Below, piece after piece: positions 122 through 5,121 of a stretch of 5,121 nt of DNA (its first letter is position 1; every line of letters starts with the position of its first letter). The stretch is from a virus. The stretch is taken from the IMG/VR virus record IMGVR_UViG_3300020043_004237, positions 1-5,121 of that record, one strand, 5' to 3'. The position numbers and the translations under genes were made by a program. The notes below the pieces were generated by a model. It was not told the origin of the DNA, did not search any database, and was given only the letters and a program-made list of their open reading frames with translations.

Positions 122-1668
122 ATCATTGGTCTAGCGCATGTGTAATCGAATGCGAAGTCTGCGCGTATTGGAGCACTAAGAGAGGAACTAACTGCAAGTA
201 CACGATCAATAGGAGTATTAGAAACGATGAAGTCTTCGTTGAACTCCGGTAGAGAACCAAATTCTTCCGACATGTGCCATGCATCAAGTGACGTCGCATA
301 GTTAGAGCGGAATTCGCCTCGGATCTCTGATGGGCGGTAGCGGTAATCGGCATAGCGTTCTTGATAAGAGAAAACGTCGTCATCTGCTGATGTTCCTTGT
401 GCGAATATTTCTTTGTTTAAGATTTCTTGTTCACCAAGCCCTTGTAATTTAGGCCAGTAATAATCGTATCGAGTAGAGCGGTTCCACATTCTATACAGGC
501 CTTGTTGGTAAGTGATCGAAGCTTTGAAGGATATAAGTCCGAGTACGATACCGTGCTCGACAAACGATTTAGCGAATCCAAGGCGTCCGCCTCCTGCTGA
601 CATTGTTGCAAAAGCCGCGAGATTCGCTTGAGGCTTGCCTGTTTCCGTTGCTGAATTCTGAGCCACTGGGTGTACGTTAACGTCGACATATGATCCTCCT
701 AAATATTCGCTTCTATGTTGGGCATCTGGAAGCACTGTGTTGAAATGAGCTAATAATAATTCTGGGTATCTTGTTCCGCCGCGTGCGTCTAATTCGAACA
801 AGGATTGCATTAGCATAGCTTCTCGTAAGGCATTGATGGTTGCTGCTGTTGCTGTAGAAAGATCGGCTACAGCGCCAATATCAGAGCCCCAGAATAGTGG
901 TTGAGTAACCGCTTGAGCTGCTCCTCCCATAAATATAGCGTTTGTTCCTGCATTTGCTACTAGGGATTGATTAGCTTGTTGTATAGTAGATACCTGAAGA
1001 GAATGTCCTGTGCTTATTAATGGAGCAGTTGTTCCTAAAGGTAGTGTTACGTCTGGCCCTTTTTGTGGCCAAGGGAGGGACGATGTAAAGTAATCATGTG
1101 CTTTGTTAATTTTCTGTAATGGGAAGTCTGCTGCTACGTCTGGTCCGTCATCCATTGGAACGTCTACAGAATCCTGTAAATTTTGATCTCTGAACCATTG
1201 ATTATAAACTAAATTATAACCACGCAGCGGAAGTGCGTTTTTTACAACAAGATTAGGAACCGCAGTAGGAATGCCGAACTTGTCAAACACAGTACCGACA
1301 GCGAAGCCAGTAACAGCAGGTGCAGTAATCGACGGAGTAAGGTAATCTGTCGTGTCATCGGGGTTCTCCTGTTCTCCCATTTGCTTTTTAAAGTTTTCCC
1401 ATACCAAACGATTTGGAATGTGAAAGAAATGAACTGAAGCGTAAAGTCTGTCCATTAACGGCACTACTTGAGTGTTTACCCGTGCGAACATGTTTACATT
1501 TAAGTTGAAGGTGTCTCCTGGCAATACTTCATCTACGAAGAATGGATACAAATAATCGAATTGATATGTATCTTTTGCCTGGAAGTCTCGCCGGAATACT
1601 GAGCGCGGAGTGTTTACCGCGGGAATTTCTGCGAAACTGTGTTGGTTATGGCGTGAGCCGAATTGCAT
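85..1668 (-). CDS. VP1: Major capsid protein VP1 (Microviridae F-protein family, gokushovirus type)
   Basis: This is a 527-aa ORF. Its N-terminal block HNQHSFAEIP..PRSVF...FVDEVLPGDTFNLN..FARV....P.MD...HFFHIPNRLVWENF matches the capsid signature I recall for gokushovirus VP1. An AAGGAG Shine-Dalgarno (SD) motif sits at 1674-1679, 5 nt before the ATG at 1668. The stop TAA (87-85) overlaps the VP2 ATG (85-83) as TAATG. Confidence 0.93.
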   Translation of the reverse strand: MQFGSRHNQHSFAEIPAVNTPRSVFRRDFQAKDTYQFDYLYPFFVDEVLPGDTFNLNVNMFARVNTQVVPLMDRLYASVHFFHIPNRLVWENFKKQMGEQENPDDTTDYLTPSITAPAVTGFAVGTVFDKFGIPTAVPNLVVKNALPLRGYNLVYNQWFRDQNLQDSVDVPMDDGPDVAADFPLQKINKAHDYFTSSLPWPQKGPDVTLPLGTTAPLISTGHSLQVSTIQQANQSLVANAGTNAIFMGGAAQAVTQPLFWGSDIGAVADLSTATAATINALREAMLMQSLFELDARGGTRYPELLLAHFNTVLPDAQHRSEYLGGSYVDVNVHPVAQNSATETGKPQANLAAFATMSAGGGRLGFAKSFVEHGIVLGLISFKASITYQQGLYRMWNRSTRYDYYWPKLQGLGEQEILNKEIFAQGTSADDDVFSYQERYADYRYRPSEIRGEFRSNYATSLDAWHMSEEFGSLPEFNEDFIVSNTPIDRVLAVSSSLSAPIRADFAFDYTCARPMMTYSVPATLGRF

Positions 1669-2601: not shown

Positions 2602-2721
2602 TTATGAGAGACGTACGCCTCCGCGCATGCGTCTGATATTTAGATTATTCATTTTTTGAACACCTAAATTTTTTTTAAATACTCGTTTTGAGTTACCTTT
2701 TGACATTTTTGAACGTTTCAT
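2602..2721 (-). CDS. VP8: Small basic DNA-binding/packaging peptide, ORF8/VP8 type (functional analogue of phiX174 J); 39 aa
   Basis: This ORF is not in the track, so I translated it by hand: MKRSKMSKGNSKRVFKKNLGVQKMNNLNIRRMRGGVRLS*. It has 13 Lys/Arg residues and no acidic residue. The C-terminal MRGGVRL resembles the (M/P)RGG(I/R)R(L/F) ending I recall for gokushovirus and SpV4 ORF8 peptides. A GAGGAG SD sits at 2729-2734, 7 nt before the ATG at 2721. The upstream ORF stops only 1 nt before this ATG (TAAGATG). Confidence 0.75.
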   Translation of the reverse strand: MKRSKMSKGNSKRVFKKNLGVQKMNNLNIRRMRGGVRLS

Positions 2722-2722
2722 C

Positions 2723-2848
2723 TTAACACTCCTCTGGTTGAAACTTGCAATATACTTTCTCTACGGAAGGTGCAATTGCATCTGATGATAATCCTAACAC
2801 GGTAGCCAATATTAGAGCAACTATTGAAACAATTAGTCGTTTTTTCAT
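2723..2848 (-). CDS. 41-aa predicted single-pass membrane (signal-anchor) peptide of unknown function
   Basis: This ORF is not in the track, so I translated it by hand: MKKRLIVSIVALILATVLGLSSDAIAPSVEKVYCKFQPEEC*. It has a positive N-region (MKKR), a 16-residue hydrophobic core and a short polar tail with 2 Cys. A strong AAGGAGG SD sits at 2853-2859, 4 nt before the ATG at 2848. The ORF is on the same strand as all other genes and packs tightly against VP8. Confidence 0.6.
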   Translation of the reverse strand: MKKRLIVSIVALILATVLGLSSDAIAPSVEKVYCKFQPEEC

Positions 2849-2879
2849 TTTTCCTCCTTTGATTAGAATATCATCTTTT

Positions 2880-2908
2880 TTTTTACTGACAACCTTAAAA
2901 GGTGTCAG
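2880..2908 (-). promoter_or_regulatory. Possible sigma70-like promoter for the 41-aa / VP8 / VP4 genes
   Basis: The minus strand reads CTGACA (2908-2903), a 17-nt spacer, then TAAAAA (2885-2880). It lies about 30 nt upstream of the ATG at 2848. The -10 element is weak, the call rests on motif matching alone, and it overlaps a hairpin. Confidence 0.25.
2886..2908. repeat. Imperfect inverted repeat / hairpin
   Basis: CTGACA (2886-2891) pairs with TGTCAG (2903-2908), and CC (2893-2894) pairs with GG (2901-2902). A2892 is bulged and the loop is TTAAAA. A T9 run precedes it on the plus strand, which is an A9 run following it on the minus strand. Confidence 0.6.
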
Positions 2909-2909
2909 T

Positions 2910-2944
2910 GGGCATATATTACAACAAGAAGTGAATATATGCCC
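2910..2944. repeat. Perfect 11-bp inverted repeat with a 13-nt loop, immediately downstream of the VP5 stop
   Basis: GGGCATATATT (2910-2920) is the exact reverse complement of AATATATGCCC (2934-2944). The loop is 2921-2933. It starts 14 nt after the VP5 stop codon (2958-2960) on the minus strand. Confidence 0.85.
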
Positions 2945-2957
2945 CCCTGAGGGTCCC

Positions 2958-3221
2958 CTACTGGACTGAAGCCAGTTTTTTAAGCGAGTCTGCTCGCATT
3001 ACGGACTTTGGTACAGCGTTATGGTGAACCGTACCTGTAGCGGTATCGAATTCACCAATGTGATAGAGAACGAAGTCCTCTGGATTAGTACATACTAATG
3101 TTTTTGTGTCGTTCGCCATGTGCTGGAACTGACGCTCGGCTTCGCCGATGCTTTTGTATGTTTGCGGATCTAAAAAGTATCCTGCTTTTTGGTCCTTAAT
3201 TGCTAAAATTTGTTTGATCAT
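2958..3221 (-). CDS. VP5: Non-structural protein VP5 (ORF5 family; proposed phiX174 protein C analogue), 87 aa
   Basis: MIKQILAIKDQKAGYFLDP...GEAERQF......NPEDFVLYHIGEFDTATGTV....PK matches the PEDF.LY.IGEFD..TG core I recall for gokushovirus ORF5/VP5. I prefer the internal ATG at 3221 over the track start at 3260. The ATG at 3221 has an AAGGAG SD at 3228-3233 with a 6-nt spacer, whereas 3260 has no SD. Confidence 0.85.
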   Translation of the reverse strand: MIKQILAIKDQKAGYFLDPQTYKSIGEAERQFQHMANDTKTLVCTNPEDFVLYHIGEFDTATGTVHHNAVPKSVMRADSLKKLASVQ

Positions 3222-3399
3222 TTTGTGCTCCTTTTTTAACGATTTTAACTTTGATTGCATTTGTTTTAGCTAAATTATTTAAAATACTTTGCGCTATTTC
3301 TAATAGCTGTTCTTTTGTACATGAAGGACGAAAGTCCCAAGTTGTATCTCCGTTGCAATGAACGCTAAATAGTTCATGTGATTTATGTTTGTATTTCAT
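3196..3399 (-). CDS. Hypothetical 67-aa protein (ORFan; no family recognised)
   Basis: The ORF is in the track. A GGAG SD sits at 3407-3410, 7 nt before the ATG at 3399. The start overlaps the stop of the upstream 26-aa ORF as ATGA. The 3' end overlaps the VP5 start by 26 nt in another frame. I saw no hydrophobic segment and no recognisable motif. Confidence 0.5.
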   Translation of the reverse strand: MKYKHKSHELFSVHCNGDTTWDFRPSCTKEQLLEIAQSILNNLAKTNAIKVKIVKKGAQNDQTNFSN

Positions 3400-3476
3400 T
3401 TTTTTTCTCCATTTGGTTTAGATCGCATTATTGCGATTTTTTGTTTATTTCGTTTATAGTACGATTTTTTTTTCAT
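3396..3476 (-). CDS. 26-aa lysine-rich peptide (a second small basic ORF); hypothetical
   Basis: I translated it by hand: MKKKSYYKRNKQKIAIMRSKPNGEKK*. It has 11 Lys/Arg residues in 26. An AAGGAG SD sits at 3483-3488, 6 nt before the ATG at 3476. The stop TGA (3398-3396) overlaps the next ATG (3399-3397). The ORF is very short and partly built from an A9 run, so it could be fortuitous. Confidence 0.4.
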   Translation of the reverse strand: MKKKSYYKRNKQKIAIMRSKPNGEKK

Positions 3477-3498
3477 TTATTTCTCCTTAGGTTTTTTA

Positions 3499-3526
3499 AA
3501 GATGTTACTTTAAAAAACTTCGTCAA
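3499..3526 (-). promoter_or_regulatory. Possible sigma70-like promoter for the small-gene cluster
   Basis: The minus strand reads TTGACG (3526-3521), a 16-nt spacer, then CATCTT (3504-3499). It lies in an AT-rich region downstream of the terminator-like hairpin and about 25 nt upstream of the ATG at 3476. The -10 element is poor and the call rests on motif matching alone. Confidence 0.25.
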
Positions 3527-3549
3527 GTTGTTTTGTGATTTTTATTTTA

Positions 3550-3574
3550 TTTTTTTTGGAGGACCCAAAAAAAA
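3550..3574. repeat. A/T-tract inverted repeat
   Basis: T8GG (3550-3559) and CCA8 (3565-3574) are reverse complements around the loop AGGAC. The stem is almost all A-T, so stability is low. Confidence 0.5.
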
Positions 3575-3591
3575 GTGATTTTTTCTTTTAT

Positions 3592-3605
3592 GCACCTATC
3601 GGTGC
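3592..3605. repeat. Small GC hairpin
   Basis: GCACC (3592-3596) pairs with GGTGC (3601-3605) around the tetraloop TATC. It abuts the base of the long hairpin. Confidence 0.6.
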
Positions 3606-3683
3606 GCCAGGCATGGATAAGATGGTATGGAAAAACACCCCCATCCGTGGGGGGTTTTCCCACACCACTTACCCACACCTGGC
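3606..3683 (-). other. 78-nt rod-like imperfect hairpin in the main intergenic region. It could be a structured RNA or an ssDNA element, and its function is unknown.
   Basis: These blocks pair: 3606-3611/3678-3683, 3614-3616/3673-3675, 3618-3621/3668-3671, 3623-3626/3664-3667, 3628-3630/3660-3662, 3632-3635/3655-3658, 3636/3654 and 3638-3643/3648-3653. The loop is TCCG (3644-3647). That gives 31 Watson-Crick pairs. All five mismatches are A/C on the plus strand, which makes them G-U or G-T wobble pairs on the minus strand. Confidence 0.65.
3631..3659 (-). terminator. Intrinsic-terminator-like hairpin closing the VP4-VP1-VP2-VP3 transcription unit
   Basis: The minus strand reads AAAAC-CCCCCA-CGGA-TGGGGG-TGTTTTTCC. 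This is a 6-bp GC stem with a tetraloop and a following T-rich tract, about 85 nt downstream of the VP3 stop. The A-tract / T-tract symmetry would also allow plus-strand termination. Confidence 0.55.
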
Positions 3684-3701
3684 CGAAAAATGAGGACTCG
3701 T

Positions 3702-3711
3702 CGGACGTCCG
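3702..3711. repeat. 10-bp perfect palindrome CGGACGTCCG
   Basis: The sequence is its own reverse complement and lies in the GC-rich island between the VP3 stop and the rod hairpin. It could be a protein-binding site or chance. Confidence 0.5.
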
Positions 3712-3742
3712 CCTGAGAGCCTGCTAGATCGGTCAAATGAGC

Positions 3743-4150
3743 CTATTTTTTTTCTTCGCTCTGCTCCGATTTTTTTATAGGCTCTTCTTTTTTGACCCGC
3801 AGGCCCAGGCGGACTGACTCGTCCACATTTTTAGGGTCCTGAAGGAAGTTGATTAGTTGAGTTGGATCATTACCGAAGCGATTTCGCGTCTCAGAAGGCA
3901 AGAGTTCGAATTGTTGTTTTGCTTTGATGACGGTGTTGAGTGCTCCCTGGAAATCTTTAATTTCCACGAAATCGCCGTAAGTCCCGTCTTTGGACGTGAT
4001 GTGTGTGATTATACCAGTTGTACGGTATTTTTTTATGATGTTGTTGACATTTACCATGTCTCGCATTGATTGCTTTGTTTTTGTTGGTTTCTCGTTGATA
4101 GTTTTGATACCAAGTGAACCATCTTTACGTTTGTATTGTTGTTGTTTCAT
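3743..4150 (-). CDS. VP3: Internal scaffolding protein VP3
   Basis: This is a 135-aa ORF. KQSMRDMVNVNNIIKKY..TG......YGDF....DFQGALN.V..A...F..LP...R..F.N.P..L..FL matches the gokushovirus VP3 scaffold pattern I recall. A GAGG SD sits at 4157-4160, 6 nt before the ATG at 4150. The ATG overlaps the VP2 stop as ATGA (4150-4147). Confidence 0.88.
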   Translation of the reverse strand: MKQQQYKRKDGSLGIKTINEKPTKTKQSMRDMVNVNNIIKKYRTTGIITHITSKDGTYGDFVEIKDFQGALNTVIKAKQQFELLPSETRNRFGNDPTQLINFLQDPKNVDESVRLGLRVKKEEPIKKSEQSEEKK

Positions 4151-5085
4151 TTTTTACCTCTACTTTTGTTAAATTGTTGGATGTATTTATCTCGATCTGA
4201 TTGTGTTGTACCTTTTTGATTATATGTTGAACCTTTTTTTCTAGATTCGTATGAAAACCATTCGTTACGAATATTATTTTCTGTACGTTTACCTGAATAT
4301 GGTGGTTCTGGCATGTCTAAAGGATGTTGTTTAAAGTATTCTTTCTGATCCATATTTTTACGTGCGCGAGTACCTAATTCTCCTGCTCCTTGAATAATAC
4401 GATTTAGGAAATGAGGCATCCAATTTTGAAATTTTTTATTTTCATTAATGTATGTTTCTCCCCATTTTTGTTGTTCTGTAAGTCCTTTCTGTTCTTTTGC
4501 GACTTCTGTTTGTTCTTTAGTTAGATTTTCTGTAGCTTTCATATTTGCTAATTCTTGATCTAACCGTTTTGAAGCCAAGTTGATGTTTTTTTGTGCTTGT
4601 GATGATGCTACTCCTGCTCCAAGTGAGTTTTGTGATGTAGACATTGCTCCGCCTGGTGATGATGCTCCTGCATTTGCTGATAAGATTGGATTTAAGCCTG
4701 CTGCCATAAGATCTTTGACTTCTCGTTGATGTGCTGTTGATGACATTCTTTCTTGAAAAGCCATTTGTTCTCGTGCTGCTGCTCTATTTGCTGCATTGGT
4801 TTGTTCTTGTCCTGCTGCTGTAAGTACACCATCCATGGTAAGACCTATACCTGCTCCTATACCTAATCCTGAAGCTGCTCCTGTAGTACCTGCCGTACCG
4901 GCTGCACCTATTCCTGCTGCTGCTCCTGCATAAGCTCCTGCGCCATATCCTGCGTAAAGCTGGGTGTCATCGACACCCAAGCCTTTTTTGTAAGTTTCAT
5001 CACGAACCATTCCGATAGGGTCTAATAAGAAGTTTGCGACTGGGCCAACGGCCCTTTTAATGTCACCTATTGGGTCCCATCCCAT
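4147..5085 (-). CDS. VP2: Minor capsid / DNA pilot protein VP2
   Basis: This is a 312-aa ORF. It has a Gly/Ala-rich hydrophobic N-terminal third followed by MAFQERMSSTAHQREVKDLMAAGLNPIL. That block matches the conserved FQERMS.TA.QR...D...AGLNP core I recall for gokushovirus VP2. A GGGAGG SD sits at 5091-5096, 5 nt before the ATG at 5085. Confidence 0.9.
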   Translation of the reverse strand: MGWDPIGDIKRAVGPVANFLLDPIGMVRDETYKKGLGVDDTQLYAGYGAGAYAGAAAGIGAAGTAGTTGAASGLGIGAGIGLTMDGVLTAAGQEQTNAANRAAAREQMAFQERMSSTAHQREVKDLMAAGLNPILSANAGASSPGGAMSTSQNSLGAGVASSQAQKNINLASKRLDQELANMKATENLTKEQTEVAKEQKGLTEQQKWGETYINENKKFQNWMPHFLNRIIQGAGELGTRARKNMDQKEYFKQHPLDMPEPPYSGKRTENNIRNEWFSYESRKKGSTYNQKGTTQSDRDKYIQQFNKSRGKK

Positions 5086-5121
5086 TAGAACCTCCCGAGT
5101 GTTGCTGGTACTGAGTAAGTC
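5001..5121. repeat. Terminal redundancy copy B (identical to 1-121)
   Basis: See copy A. The segment 5085-5121 repeats the last codons of VP1. Confidence 0.95.

What the first reader, a model, noticed from the sequence alone, without database searches (positions are those of the whole stretch)
2723..2848. Unannotated 41-aa signal-anchor peptide wedged between VP5 and VP8: candidate lysis or exclusion factor
Hand translation gives MKKRLIVSIVALILATVLGLSSDAIAPSVEKVYCKFQPEEC. It has a positive N-terminus, a 16-residue hydrophobic helix, and then an A-I-A motif followed by Pro. An AXA motif normally marks signal peptidase I cleavage, but Pro at +1 is known to block it. The peptide is therefore more likely an uncleaved N-in/C-out membrane anchor displaying a 15-aa tail with two Cys. 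It has the strongest SD in the genome (AAGGAGG), and its stop is 1 nt from the VP8 start, which looks like a real, co-translated gene. No endolysin, peptidase or phiX174 E-like gene is recognisable elsewhere in this genome, and to my knowledge the way gokushoviruses lyse their hosts is poorly defined. A tiny membrane protein is the format used by the single-gene lysis proteins of small ssDNA and ssRNA phages. Superinfection exclusion or assembly-site anchoring are equally possible.
Basis: partly seen in the sequence, partly recalled or inferred. Interest (0 to 1): 0.7.

Follow-up and report, generated by a model that had tools for sequence, protein, structure and literature searches.

The report
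Portable membrane mini-protein in a gokushovirus
The 41-codon ORF is a real, strongly conserved gene for a tiny inner-membrane protein that has moved alone between small ssDNA phages and tectivirus-like dsDNA phages, where it sits in the lysis-gene slot, so it is a testable candidate lysis factor for phages whose lysis mechanism is unknown.

Summary
The ORF at 2723-2848 (- strand) is a genuine gene. It belongs to a small, undescribed family of 41-48-aa peptides (17 clusters among 5.8 billion proteins, with no Pfam, PHROG, NCBIfam or PDB match). It is under strong purifying selection (9 synonymous to 1 non-synonymous change against its nearest relative, dN/dS about 0.03).

The family shares:
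- a basic N-terminus;
- a 16-19-residue hydrophobic helix with a conserved face of small residues (positions 8, 11, 15, 19);
- an amphipathic stretch;
- an invariant Y-C-x-h-x-P-x-[DE]-C end.

The gene travels alone. It occupies at least three, probably four, different slots in gokushovirus genomes whose VP1 proteins are only 37-51% identical, and closer relatives lack it. It also occurs in about 11.5-kb linear, PolB-encoding, tectivirus-like dsDNA phages. There it always lies immediately 3' of a membrane-anchored SLT transglycosylase gene, the slot PRD1 uses for its holin.

My best reading (about 0.42) is a self-associating, holin- or Hok-like membrane lysis effector. Superinfection exclusion, a MgrB-like modulator and a cleaved periplasmic peptide remain open. 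It cannot explain gokushovirus lysis in general, because most gokushoviruses lack it.

The parts
2723..2848 (-). Coding sequence of the 41-aa mini-protein, stop codon included.
   Evidence: ORF list and sequence. Homologues found. dN/dS about 0.03.
2853..2859 (-). Shine-Dalgarno AAGGAGG, 4 nt upstream of the ATG.
   Evidence: Sequence. Duplex energy -11.6 kcal/mol, tied strongest in the genome. An SD is present before every homologue.
2837..2845 (-). Codons K2-K3-R4, the basic cytoplasmic N-terminus (+3).
   Evidence: Net charge is +2 or +3 at the N-terminus in all family members, and 0 to -3 in the C-tail.
2789..2836 (-). Codons 5-20, the hydrophobic transmembrane helix with small residues at 8, 11, 15 and 19 on one face.
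   Evidence: Kyte-Doolittle and Hessa sums. Column statistics show small residues in 0.88-1.00 of members at positions 8, 11, 15 and 19. AlphaFold2 predicts a helix at 2-18.
2726..2779 (-). Codons 24-41, the predicted periplasmic amphipathic helix ending in the conserved motif [DE]-x-[IV]-Y-C-x-h-x-P-x-[DE]-C (Y33, C34, P38, C41).
   Evidence: Y33, C34 and C41 are invariant, P38 is present in 17 of 18, and position 40 is acidic in 18 of 18. AlphaFold2 predicts a helix at 22-36.
2729..2734 (-). GAGGAG, which is both codons E39-E40 of the mini-protein and the Shine-Dalgarno of VP8.
   Evidence: Sequence, duplex energy -9.4 kcal/mol. In L003, L008 and L011 the extra C-terminal G-G-K codons (GGAGGAAAA in L003/L008, GGAGGCAAA in L011) play the same role.
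2602..2721 (-). VP8 (39-aa basic DNA-binding peptide). Its start is 1 nt after the mini-ORF stop.
   Evidence: Matches phrog_10695. Similar to phiMH2K protein p10.
2865..2892 (-). Promoter-like site TTGTCA-16 nt-(TG)TATTCT just upstream of the mini-ORF. It is a consensus match only.
   Evidence: Four such sites were found against 3.0 expected from shuffles, so this is weak.
2885..2944 (.). Two adjacent hairpins in the VP5-to-mini-ORF spacer: an 11-bp perfect stem at 2910-2920/2934-2944 and a 12-nt, 83% complementary stem at 2885-2896/2898-2909.
   Evidence: Function untested.
2958..3221 (-). VP5 (Phage_ORF5), the upstream neighbour. The SD-supported start is at 3221.
   Evidence: Pfam E=1.5e-23. 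SD analysis. An 87-aa gene call in L001.

Best explanation
The ORF encodes a bitopic inner-membrane mini-protein. The basic N-terminus (MKKR) stays in the cytoplasm. Residues 5-20 span the membrane. The roughly 20-residue acidic tail faces the periplasm as an amphipathic helix, ending in a loop closed or cross-linked by C34 and C41.

The helix carries a conserved stripe of small residues (S8, A11, A15, G19), of the kind that lets transmembrane helices pack into oligomers.

I propose a portable, partner-independent lysis effector of the holin/Hok type. It is made in quantity from a strong ribosome-binding site together with VP8. It accumulates in the membrane, self-associates, and at a threshold damages or depolarises the membrane, or acts through its periplasmic loop on the wall machinery, ending the infection.

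In tectivirus-like dsDNA phages the same protein works next to a membrane-anchored SLT transglycosylase.

Shown: the gene is real and selected, the family features are conserved, the gene moves alone, and the genomic contexts are as described. Inferred: topology, oligomerisation, the disulfide and the lytic activity.
For: - Real gene: purifying selection with dN/dS about 0.03 in two close pairs. An SD plus ATG precedes every copy.
- Family: 12 representative clusters in an exhaustive profile search of 1.84 billion proteins, and 17 clusters at 90% identity.
- Membrane design: N-terminal charge +2 or +3, a 16-19-residue uncharged run, and a C-tail of net charge 0 to -3 in all members. Small residues occur at positions 8, 11, 15 and 19 in 88-100% of members. 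Y33, C34 and C41 are invariant, P38 is near-invariant, and position 40 is always acidic. AlphaFold2 gives two helices, 2-18 and 22-36, at pLDDT 75.
- Portability: the gene occupies VP5|VP8, VP4|VP1, VP2|VP3 and a slot after VP5-orf65 in gokushoviruses whose VP1 proteins are 37-51% identical, while closer relatives lack it. No second accessory gene travels with it.
- Lysis context in dsDNA phages: in three distinct PolB, ITR-bearing phage genomes, seen on four contigs (L013; L014 and L015, which carry the same peptide; L021), the gene directly follows a TM-anchored SLT gene, with a 4-nt ATGA overlap in L013. After it come a 55-61-aa ORF with an N-terminal TM and a coiled coil (weak PHROG holin hit, E=0.0097), then a 114-128-aa protein, then, in L013, the only complete genome, reverse-strand end genes.
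- PRD1 comparison: in PRD1 the gene that overlaps the 3' end of transglycosylase gene VII by 4 nt is holin XXXV, followed by Rz and Rz1.
- Literature: lysis-associated accessory genes of other microvirus families (Families 2, 7 and 14) sit between VP1 and VP4 (PMC9239249). Gokushoviruses lack a known lysis gene (PMC7062461).
Against: - There is no experimental datum and no homology to any holin, Sgl or Hok family.
- The window genome has no endolysin for a holin to serve. In Gram-negative cells membrane damage alone does not usually dissolve the wall.
- In the dsDNA phages the neighbouring 55-61-aa ORF, not the mini-protein, gives the weak holin hit. The SLT protein could be a virion entry enzyme like PRD1 P7, which would make the neighbourhood an entry module.
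- Most gokushoviruses lyse without this gene.
- The conserved part is the periplasmic motif rather than the helix sequence, which fits a specific binding partner as well as it fits a pore.
- A very strong RBS is unlike phiX174 E.
Confidence: 0.42

Rival explanations
1. Superinfection-exclusion or entry-blocking factor. The peptide sits in the inner membrane of the infected cell, and its periplasmic loop blocks genome delivery by later-arriving phages, or blocks a host component they need.
For: - It has a bitopic N-in/C-out design with a conserved periplasmic motif suggesting a specific partner.
- Expression is strong and constitutive-looking.
- It is a rare accessory gene with a patchy distribution.
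- From my own knowledge, small membrane exclusion proteins are common in phages (for example T4 Imm and Sp).
Against: - The same gene is carried by microviruses and by tectivirus-like phages, whose entry machines are unrelated.
- In the dsDNA phages it lies at the end of the late operon beside SLT, in the PRD1 holin slot, not among early or immunity genes.
- PADLOC gives only weak hits to a transmembrane segment.
Confidence: 0.2
2. MgrB-like small membrane modulator. The peptide binds, through its periplasmic disulfide loop, a host inner-membrane enzyme or sensor (a peptidoglycan synthase or hydrolase, a sensor kinase, or a division protein). It retunes that target for the phage's benefit without forming lesions itself.
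For: - The invariant residues are all in the periplasmic tail (Y33, C34, P38, C41, acidic 40), while the helix keeps only its hydrophobicity and its small-residue face.
- The gene functions without a phage partner.
- From my own knowledge, the architecture (MKK, one helix, a tail with two Cys) matches E. coli MgrB (47 aa, inhibitor of PhoQ) and similar small-protein regulators.
Against: - No sequence similarity to any such protein was found.
- No target can be named.
- Adjacency to SLT in three distinct phages points to the wall or lysis rather than signalling.
- If the target were a wall enzyme, this rival merges with the lysis hypothesis.
Confidence: 0.15
3. Cleaved secretory pre-peptide. 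Residues 1-19 are an ordinary Sec signal peptide cut after the invariant G/A19 (V-L-G|L here, A-L-A|L in other members). This would release a soluble 22-28-residue, disulfide-bonded acidic peptide into the periplasm or medium.
For: - Position 19 is always Gly or Ala, and position 17 is permissive in most members.
- The n-region plus a 14-residue h-region is within signal-peptide range.
- Three members give weak hits to the lipoprotein signal model LPAM_1.
- Profile hits in the PDB are to signal peptides only.
Against: - There is no polar c-region before position 19.
- Position +1 is always Leu or Ile.
- Position -3 is Tyr or Trp in three members.
- The small-residue stripe 8-11-15-19 along the helix is conserved, which is not expected of a disposable signal peptide.
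- No predictor such as SignalP was available here.
Confidence: 0.13
4. Natural signal-peptidase I inhibitor. Pro at +1 of an A-x-A site makes the peptide a non-cleavable competitive substrate that jams LepB.
For: - The window peptide has A24-I25-A26-P27.
- 13 of 18 members have Pro at position 27 or 28.
- From my own knowledge, precursors with Pro at +1 inhibit E. coli leader peptidase (work of Barkocy-Gallagher and Bassford, and of Nilsson and von Heijne, 1992).
Against: - Five members have no Pro there. The residue before Pro is E, Q or N in several.
- The motif shifts register between members.
- The invariant residues lie elsewhere.
Confidence: 0.04
5. Spurious ORF: a chance open frame in an intergenic spacer.
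For: The ORF is short and matches no known family.
Against: - 9 to 1 and 17 to 4 synonymous to non-synonymous changes.
- Homologues in 11 or more contigs of two virus realms, with invariant residues.
- An SD precedes every copy.
Confidence: 0.01

Closest known systems
Holin P35 (gene XXXV) of tectivirus PRD1
   Same: - Same genomic slot in the tectivirus-like relatives: immediately 3' of the membrane-anchored SLT transglycosylase gene, with a 4-nt overlap, at the end of the late operon before the reverse-strand end genes.
- Both are small membrane proteins.
   Different: - P35 is 117 aa with two or three hydrophobic segments. This peptide is 41 aa with one helix.
- There is no sequence similarity.
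- The window genome has no endolysin or transglycosylase partner.
phiX174 protein E (single-gene lysis protein, MraY inhibitor)
   Same: Both are very small, single-helix membrane proteins of a microvirus, and both would act without a phage muralytic enzyme.
   Different: - E is overprinted inside gene D. This gene stands alone in a spacer.
- From my own knowledge, E has a functional N-terminal helix followed by a basic cytoplasmic tail and is weakly translated. This peptide has a basic N-terminus, an acidic Cys-bearing tail and the strongest SD in the genome.
- No Pfam or PHROG similarity was found.
Hok/Gef type I toxins (for example HokB)
   Same: From my own knowledge, these are about 50 aa, N-in/C-out, with one helix and a periplasmic tail whose Cys residues form disulfides. 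They kill by membrane depolarisation and ghost-cell formation. That is the same architecture and the proposed action.
   Different: - No match to the Pfam Hok_Gef family at E up to 10.
- No antisense-RNA control is evident.
- The gene is virus-borne and is expressed from a strong SD.
MgrB and similar small inner-membrane regulators
   Same: From my own knowledge, MgrB is a 47-aa MKK-helix-tail protein with two conserved periplasmic Cys needed for activity. Here too the conservation is concentrated in the periplasmic part.
   Different: - No sequence similarity.
- MgrB is a chromosomal regulator of PhoQ.
- No family member was found in 185,579 species-representative bacterial and archaeal genomes by pattern scan.
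Levivirus single-gene lysis peptides (for example LysM, 37 aa, MurJ inhibitor)
   Same: Same size class, a single helix, and carried by a minimal-genome phage that has no muralytic enzyme.
   Different: - From my own knowledge, in those peptides the helix itself is the inhibitory element and there is no conserved Cys-bearing extracytoplasmic motif.
- No homology. The target of this peptide is unknown.

Membership tests
phiX174 E-type lysis protein | The gene is overprinted within the scaffolding gene in another frame. | tested here: not met
   The ORF is stand-alone, between VP5 and VP8.
phiX174 E-type lysis protein | Sequence match to the family profile. | tested here: not met
   No Pfam or PHROG hit for the peptide or for 15-18 family members.
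phiX174 E-type lysis protein | Inhibits MraY, and the lysis depends on SlyD. | not testable with these tools
   Needs genetics or biochemistry.
Holins (any class) | A small protein with at least one transmembrane domain. | tested here: met
   A 16-19-residue uncharged hydrophobic run in all members. AlphaFold2 predicts a helix at 2-18.
Holins (any class) | The gene is adjacent to an endolysin gene in a lysis cassette. | tested here: inconclusive
   Met in the tectivirus-like relatives, next to SLT and in the PRD1 holin slot. Not met in the window or in any gokushovirus carrier, which have no muralytic gene.
Holins (any class) | Similarity to a described holin family. | tested here: not met
   None in Pfam, PHROGs or NCBIfam. 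The weak holin hit belongs to the neighbouring 61-aa ORF of L014.
Holins (any class) | Timed, lethal hole formation that releases an endolysin. | not testable with these tools
   Needs a lambda S-null complementation or induction assay.
Hok/Gef toxins | Match to the Pfam Hok_Gef family. | tested here: not met
   No hit at E up to 10.
Hok/Gef toxins | N-in/C-out single helix with periplasmic Cys residues. | tested here: met
   Charge distribution and invariant C34 and C41 in the tail. The topology is predicted, not measured.
Sec signal peptide cleaved by signal peptidase I | An n-h-c organisation with small residues at -1 and -3, conserved across homologues. | tested here: inconclusive
   The A-I-A|P site is not conserved. 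G/A19 is invariant, but there is no polar c-region and +1 is always L or I. No SignalP was available.
Lipoprotein / o-spanin (Rz1 type) | A lipobox ending in Cys at the end of the h-region. | tested here: not met
   The sequence there is L-G/A-L/I-x with no Cys. The only Cys residues are C34 and C41. PRD1 Rz1 has FAAC.
Core gokushovirus gene set (VP1-5, VP8) | Present in all or most gokushoviruses at a fixed position. | tested here: not met
   Absent from L004-L007, phiMH2K, PV067905, MH992218 and MW202535. The position varies among carriers.

The most novel reading that the evidence does not exclude
The peptide is a stand-alone single-gene lysis protein. Tethered to the outer face of the inner membrane, its disulfide loop would disable or deregulate a cell-wall enzyme, or it would form Hok-like lesions. 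It has been exchanged horizontally between ssDNA gokushoviruses (Monodnaviria) and membrane-containing tectivirus-like dsDNA phages (Varidnaviria). It would be the first identified lysis gene of Gokushovirinae and a new 'protein antibiotic' with an extracytoplasmic mode of action.
Probability: 0.2. Interest if true: 0.85.

Novelty: new variant of a known kind. Interest (0 to 1): 0.6.

Why it matters
How gokushoviruses leave their hosts is an acknowledged gap. They lack the phiX174 E gene, and only a few carry peptidases (PMC7062461, PMC3394797). Here a 41-codon gene, already shown to be selected and portable, can be synthesised and tested in a day for lysis, holin complementation or exclusion.

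If it is lytic, it adds a new peptide family to the single-gene-lysis 'protein antibiotics' and may point to a new envelope target reached from the periplasmic side.

The family also links microviruses to tectivirus-like dsDNA phages by a shared gene. This bears on the conclusion that microviruses are genetically isolated from other mobile elements (PMC9239249), and it suggests that the two phage types share a host.

Tried and rejected
- **Closest sequences.** Megablast of the genome against 50,697 GenBank phage records gave no match. tblastn of family peptides against the same set gave nothing or only chance hits. The Yersinia and Klebsiella phage hits (E=2) are the N-terminus of a 146-aa tail-module protein.
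- **Family and structure libraries.** Pfam, PHROGs, NCBIfam and PADLOC, scanned with single sequences and with every alignment member, gave only weak hits to transmembrane or signal segments: LPAM_1, PspC, PDC-M35B. A PDB profile search found only signal peptides and PsaM helices. Foldseek of the AlphaFold2 model against viral structures found nothing at E<1.
- **Searches for more loci.** A degenerate DNA pattern (MKK...YCxhxPx[DE]C) was scanned over IMG/VR, GTDB genomes and JGI metagenomes. It returned 82 loci, and an HMM re-check kept only the already known L003, L011 and L070. So there are no bacterial or prophage copies and no host clue.
- **Lipoprotein or o-spanin idea.** Rejected, because there is no lipobox Cys.
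- **Signal-peptidase-inhibitor idea.** Kept only as a low-probability rival, because the Pro is not conserved.
- **Co-travelling partner gene.** I looked for one among the small ORFs upstream of VP5 in carriers, and found none.
- **VP1-overprinted hydrophobic ORF.** I tested whether it suppresses synonymous change in VP1. No signal was seen in the one usable pair, and indels limit that test.
- **Rfam.** A scan of the window found nothing.

Full report
**1. The sequence**

The window is a complete circular gokushovirus genome of 5,000 nt, with bases 1-121 repeated at 5001-5121 and 40.5% G+C. All genes lie on the - strand:
- VP2, 4147-5085
- VP3, 3743-4150
- a 266-nt non-coding region
- two small ORFs, 3396-3476 and 3196-3399
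- VP5, 2958-3221
- the target ORF, 2723-2848
- VP8, 2602-2721
- VP4, 1682-2584
- VP1, 85-1668

The nearest GenBank relatives share at most 58% VP1 identity, and Bdellovibrio phage phiMH2K shares 54%.

**2.

The SD pairs at -11.6 kcal/mol, tied with VP2 for the strongest in the genome. VP8's own SD (GAGGAG) is formed by codons E39-E40 of the target.

**3. It is a real, selected gene**

- A word-indexed search of 5.8 billion proteins found only a 98%-identical peptide.
- A gokushovirus with 74% VP4 identity (L003) and another with 63% VP1 identity (L011) carry 45-aa homologues in the same slot.
- An exhaustive profile search of 1.84 billion cluster representatives then found 12 clusters. A third search found 17 clusters at 90% identity.
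- Between close pairs, codon changes are almost all synonymous: window vs L001, 9 to 1; L003 vs L008, 17 to 4; dN/dS about 0.03 in both.
- Every copy has an SD and an ATG, and most are stop-start coupled to the next gene.

**4. What the family conserves**

- The N-terminal net charge is +2 or +3. The uncharged hydrophobic run is 16-19 residues. The C-tail has net charge 0 to -3.
- Small residues occupy positions 8, 11, 15 and 19 in 88-100% of members, which forms one face of a helix.
- Positions 24, 25, 29, 32, 33 and 36 are hydrophobic with amphipathic spacing.
- Y33, C34 and C41 are invariant. P38 is present in 17 of 18 members. Position 40 is always Asp or Glu.
- AlphaFold2 with the 18-sequence alignment gives helices at 2-18 and 22-36, with mean pLDDT 75.

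Pro is at position 27 or 28 in 13 of 18 members. The residue before it is often E, Q or N, and five members have no Pro there. The positive-inside rule, the acidic Cys-bearing tail and the conserved small-residue stripe together favour an intact N-in/C-out anchor that self-associates. Cleavage after the invariant G/A19 cannot be excluded with the tools at hand.

**5. The gene moves, and it moves alone**

In gokushoviruses it is found in these positions:
- between VP5 and VP8 (window, L001-3, L008-11);
- between VP4 and VP1 (L016-18, L106, L107);
- between VP2 and VP3 (L020);
- after VP5 and a 65-aa ORF (L019), which may be a variant of the VP5-side slot.

VP1 identity between the carrier lineages compared is 37-51%. 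Non-carriers (L004, L005, L007, phiMH2K, PV067905, MH992218, MW202535) are 50-60% identical to the window and give no family HMM hit. The other small ORFs of the carriers are unrelated to one another. This pattern indicates repeated acquisition of a single-gene module.

**6. The same gene is in dsDNA phages, in a lysis-type slot**

Three family members lie on linear contigs of about 11 kb or on fragments of them (L013; L014 and L015; L021). These encode:
- a protein-primed type-B DNA polymerase;
- a small packaging ATPase followed by a 30-aa membrane peptide and a 360-aa putative capsid protein;
- many tail-anchored membrane proteins.

L013 also has terminal inverted repeats of about 29 nt. 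This is a tectivirus-like layout.

In all three phages the mini-gene directly follows a gene for an SLT lytic transglycosylase with an N-terminal hydrophobic anchor, with a 4-nt ATGA overlap in L013. After it come:
- a 55-61-aa ORF with an N-terminal hydrophobic segment and a coiled coil (uncalled in L013 at 10134-10304; a weak PHROG 'holin' hit, E=0.0097, for L014);
- a conserved 114-128-aa soluble protein;
- in L013, the only complete genome, the reverse-strand end genes.

In PRD1 the gene that overlaps the end of transglycosylase gene VII by 4 nt is holin XXXV, followed by the Rz-like and Rz1-like spanin genes and then the reverse-strand genes XIX and XII. The mini-gene therefore occupies the holin slot of the PRD1 map.

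SLT is the only recognisable wall-degrading enzyme in these small phages. It could nevertheless be an entry enzyme like PRD1 P7, so the inference is circumstantial.

The peptides of the dsDNA phages are as similar to the gokushovirus peptides (44-56% identity) as the gokushovirus lineages are to each other.

**7. Interpretation**

A gene that works in two unrelated virion types, needs no phage partner, targets the inner membrane, and sits in lysis-type slots is most simply a host-envelope effector used at the end of infection. In tectivirus-like phages the slot is the PRD1 holin position. Among gokushoviruses the VP4-VP1 junction is its most frequent position, and PMC9239249 places lysis-associated accessory genes of other microvirus families (Families 2, 7 and 14) at that junction.

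I commit to a holin/Hok-like, self-associating membrane lysis effector, at about 0.42. The threshold behaviour of such proteins would also give a timing device to a virus with little transcriptional control, and it is compatible with a strong RBS.

Weaknesses of this reading:
- The gokushovirus has no endolysin.
- The conserved residues are periplasmic, which suggests a specific partner.
- The neighbouring ORF, not this one, resembles a holin.

The rivals are superinfection exclusion (0.20), a MgrB-like modulator of a host membrane protein (0.15), a cleaved periplasmic peptide (0.13), a signal-peptidase inhibitor (0.04) and a spurious ORF (0.01).

**8. Comparison with the known**

No Pfam, PHROG, NCBIfam, PADLOC or PDB family matches, and Foldseek finds nothing.
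- It is not a phiX174 E homologue or analogue in gene organisation.
- It is not a lipoprotein or spanin.
- It is not a member of Hok/Gef.
- It resembles Hok/Gef and MgrB in architecture only, and PRD1 P35 in position only.

The literature held here describes no lysis gene for gokushoviruses other than occasional M15 peptidases. phiMH2K's orfN, annotated as 'similar to E and K' and lying inside VP4, has no counterpart in this window.

**9. Novelty and limits**

This is a new small-protein family of a known general kind: phage single-helix membrane proteins. Two features are unusual. It is shared between Monodnaviria and Varidnaviria phages, and it has an invariant extracytoplasmic Cys motif.

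It is rare, with 17 clusters in all, so it does not solve gokushovirus lysis in general. The host is unknown. Samples include wastewater, and no copy was found in 185,579 representative bacterial and archaeal genomes.

Noticed in passing
window 1242-1358 (- strand), inside VP1; also L003 2326-2451, L008 4012-4137, L011 2251-2361: A 36-41-codon hydrophobic ORF is overprinted in another frame of VP1. It is open at the same place in four relatives and is preceded by a GGAG 6 nt upstream. This is a phiX174-E-style arrangement and a possible alternative lysis candidate. In the only usable close pair, VP1 synonymous change is not reduced there (3 in 40 codons), so there is no positive support yet.
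   Followed up: partly
L013 (Logan SRR30597325_6814, 11,495 nt), L014, L015, L021: These are small linear dsDNA phage genomes of about 11-11.5 kb. They have roughly 29-nt inverted terminal repeats, a protein-primed PolB, a packaging ATPase, a 30-aa membrane peptide, a 360-aa putative capsid protein with no database match, and many tail-anchored membrane proteins. They look like an undescribed tectivirus-like lineage smaller than PRD1.
   Followed up: partly
L013 10134-10304; L014 10200-10385; L021 1557-1724: A conserved 55-61-aa ORF with an N-terminal hydrophobic segment plus a coiled coil lies just after the mini-gene in the dsDNA phages. It gives a weak PHROG holin hit (E=0.0097) and was not called as a gene in L013. 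A conserved 114-128-aa soluble protein of unknown function follows it.
   Followed up: partly
window 3590-3740 (non-coding region 3477-3742): A G+C-rich island (56%, against 40.5% for the genome) lies in the long non-coding region. It contains a terminator-like hairpin plus T-run at 3655-3637 on the coding strand, about 90 nt after the VP3 stop. No Rfam family matches.
   Followed up: partly
window 2885-2944 and 2865-2892: The VP5-to-mini-ORF spacer holds two adjacent hairpins, one an 11-bp perfect stem, and a promoter-like TTGTCA-16-TG-TATTCT. This may be a transcription start for the mini-ORF/VP8/VP4/VP1 block or a site for complementary-strand synthesis.
   Followed up: no
window 3396-3476 and 3196-3399 (- strand): A 26-aa very basic peptide ORF (MKKKSYYKRNKQKIAIMRSKPNGEKK) is identical in L001 and L002, and a 67-aa ORF is nearly identical there. 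Both have SDs. Neither is found in L003, and neither matches a family. The small ORFs at this position in other carriers are all unrelated to one another.
   Followed up: partly
window 2958-3260: The mechanical ORF for VP5 starts at 3260, but that ATG has no SD (+1.3 kcal/mol). The ATG at 3221 has AAGGAG upstream and matches the 87-aa gene call in relatives, so VP5 is probably 2958-3221.
   Followed up: yes
window vs L001 (JGI 3300020037): The first 200 or so VP1 codons differ by only 7 synonymous changes, whereas the 41-codon mini-ORF differs by 9. VP1 also has indels further on. This suggests a mosaic or recombinant history between these two close genomes.
   Followed up: no
Logan runs SRR27476770, SRR27476771, SRR27476773 and SRR20958182: A carrier gokushovirus (L018) and the tectivirus-like carrier (L014, L015) come from three near-consecutive runs, likely one study. 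One run (SRR20958182) holds three different carrier gokushoviruses (L020, L106, L107). This is consistent with a shared habitat or host in which the gene is exchanged.
   Followed up: no
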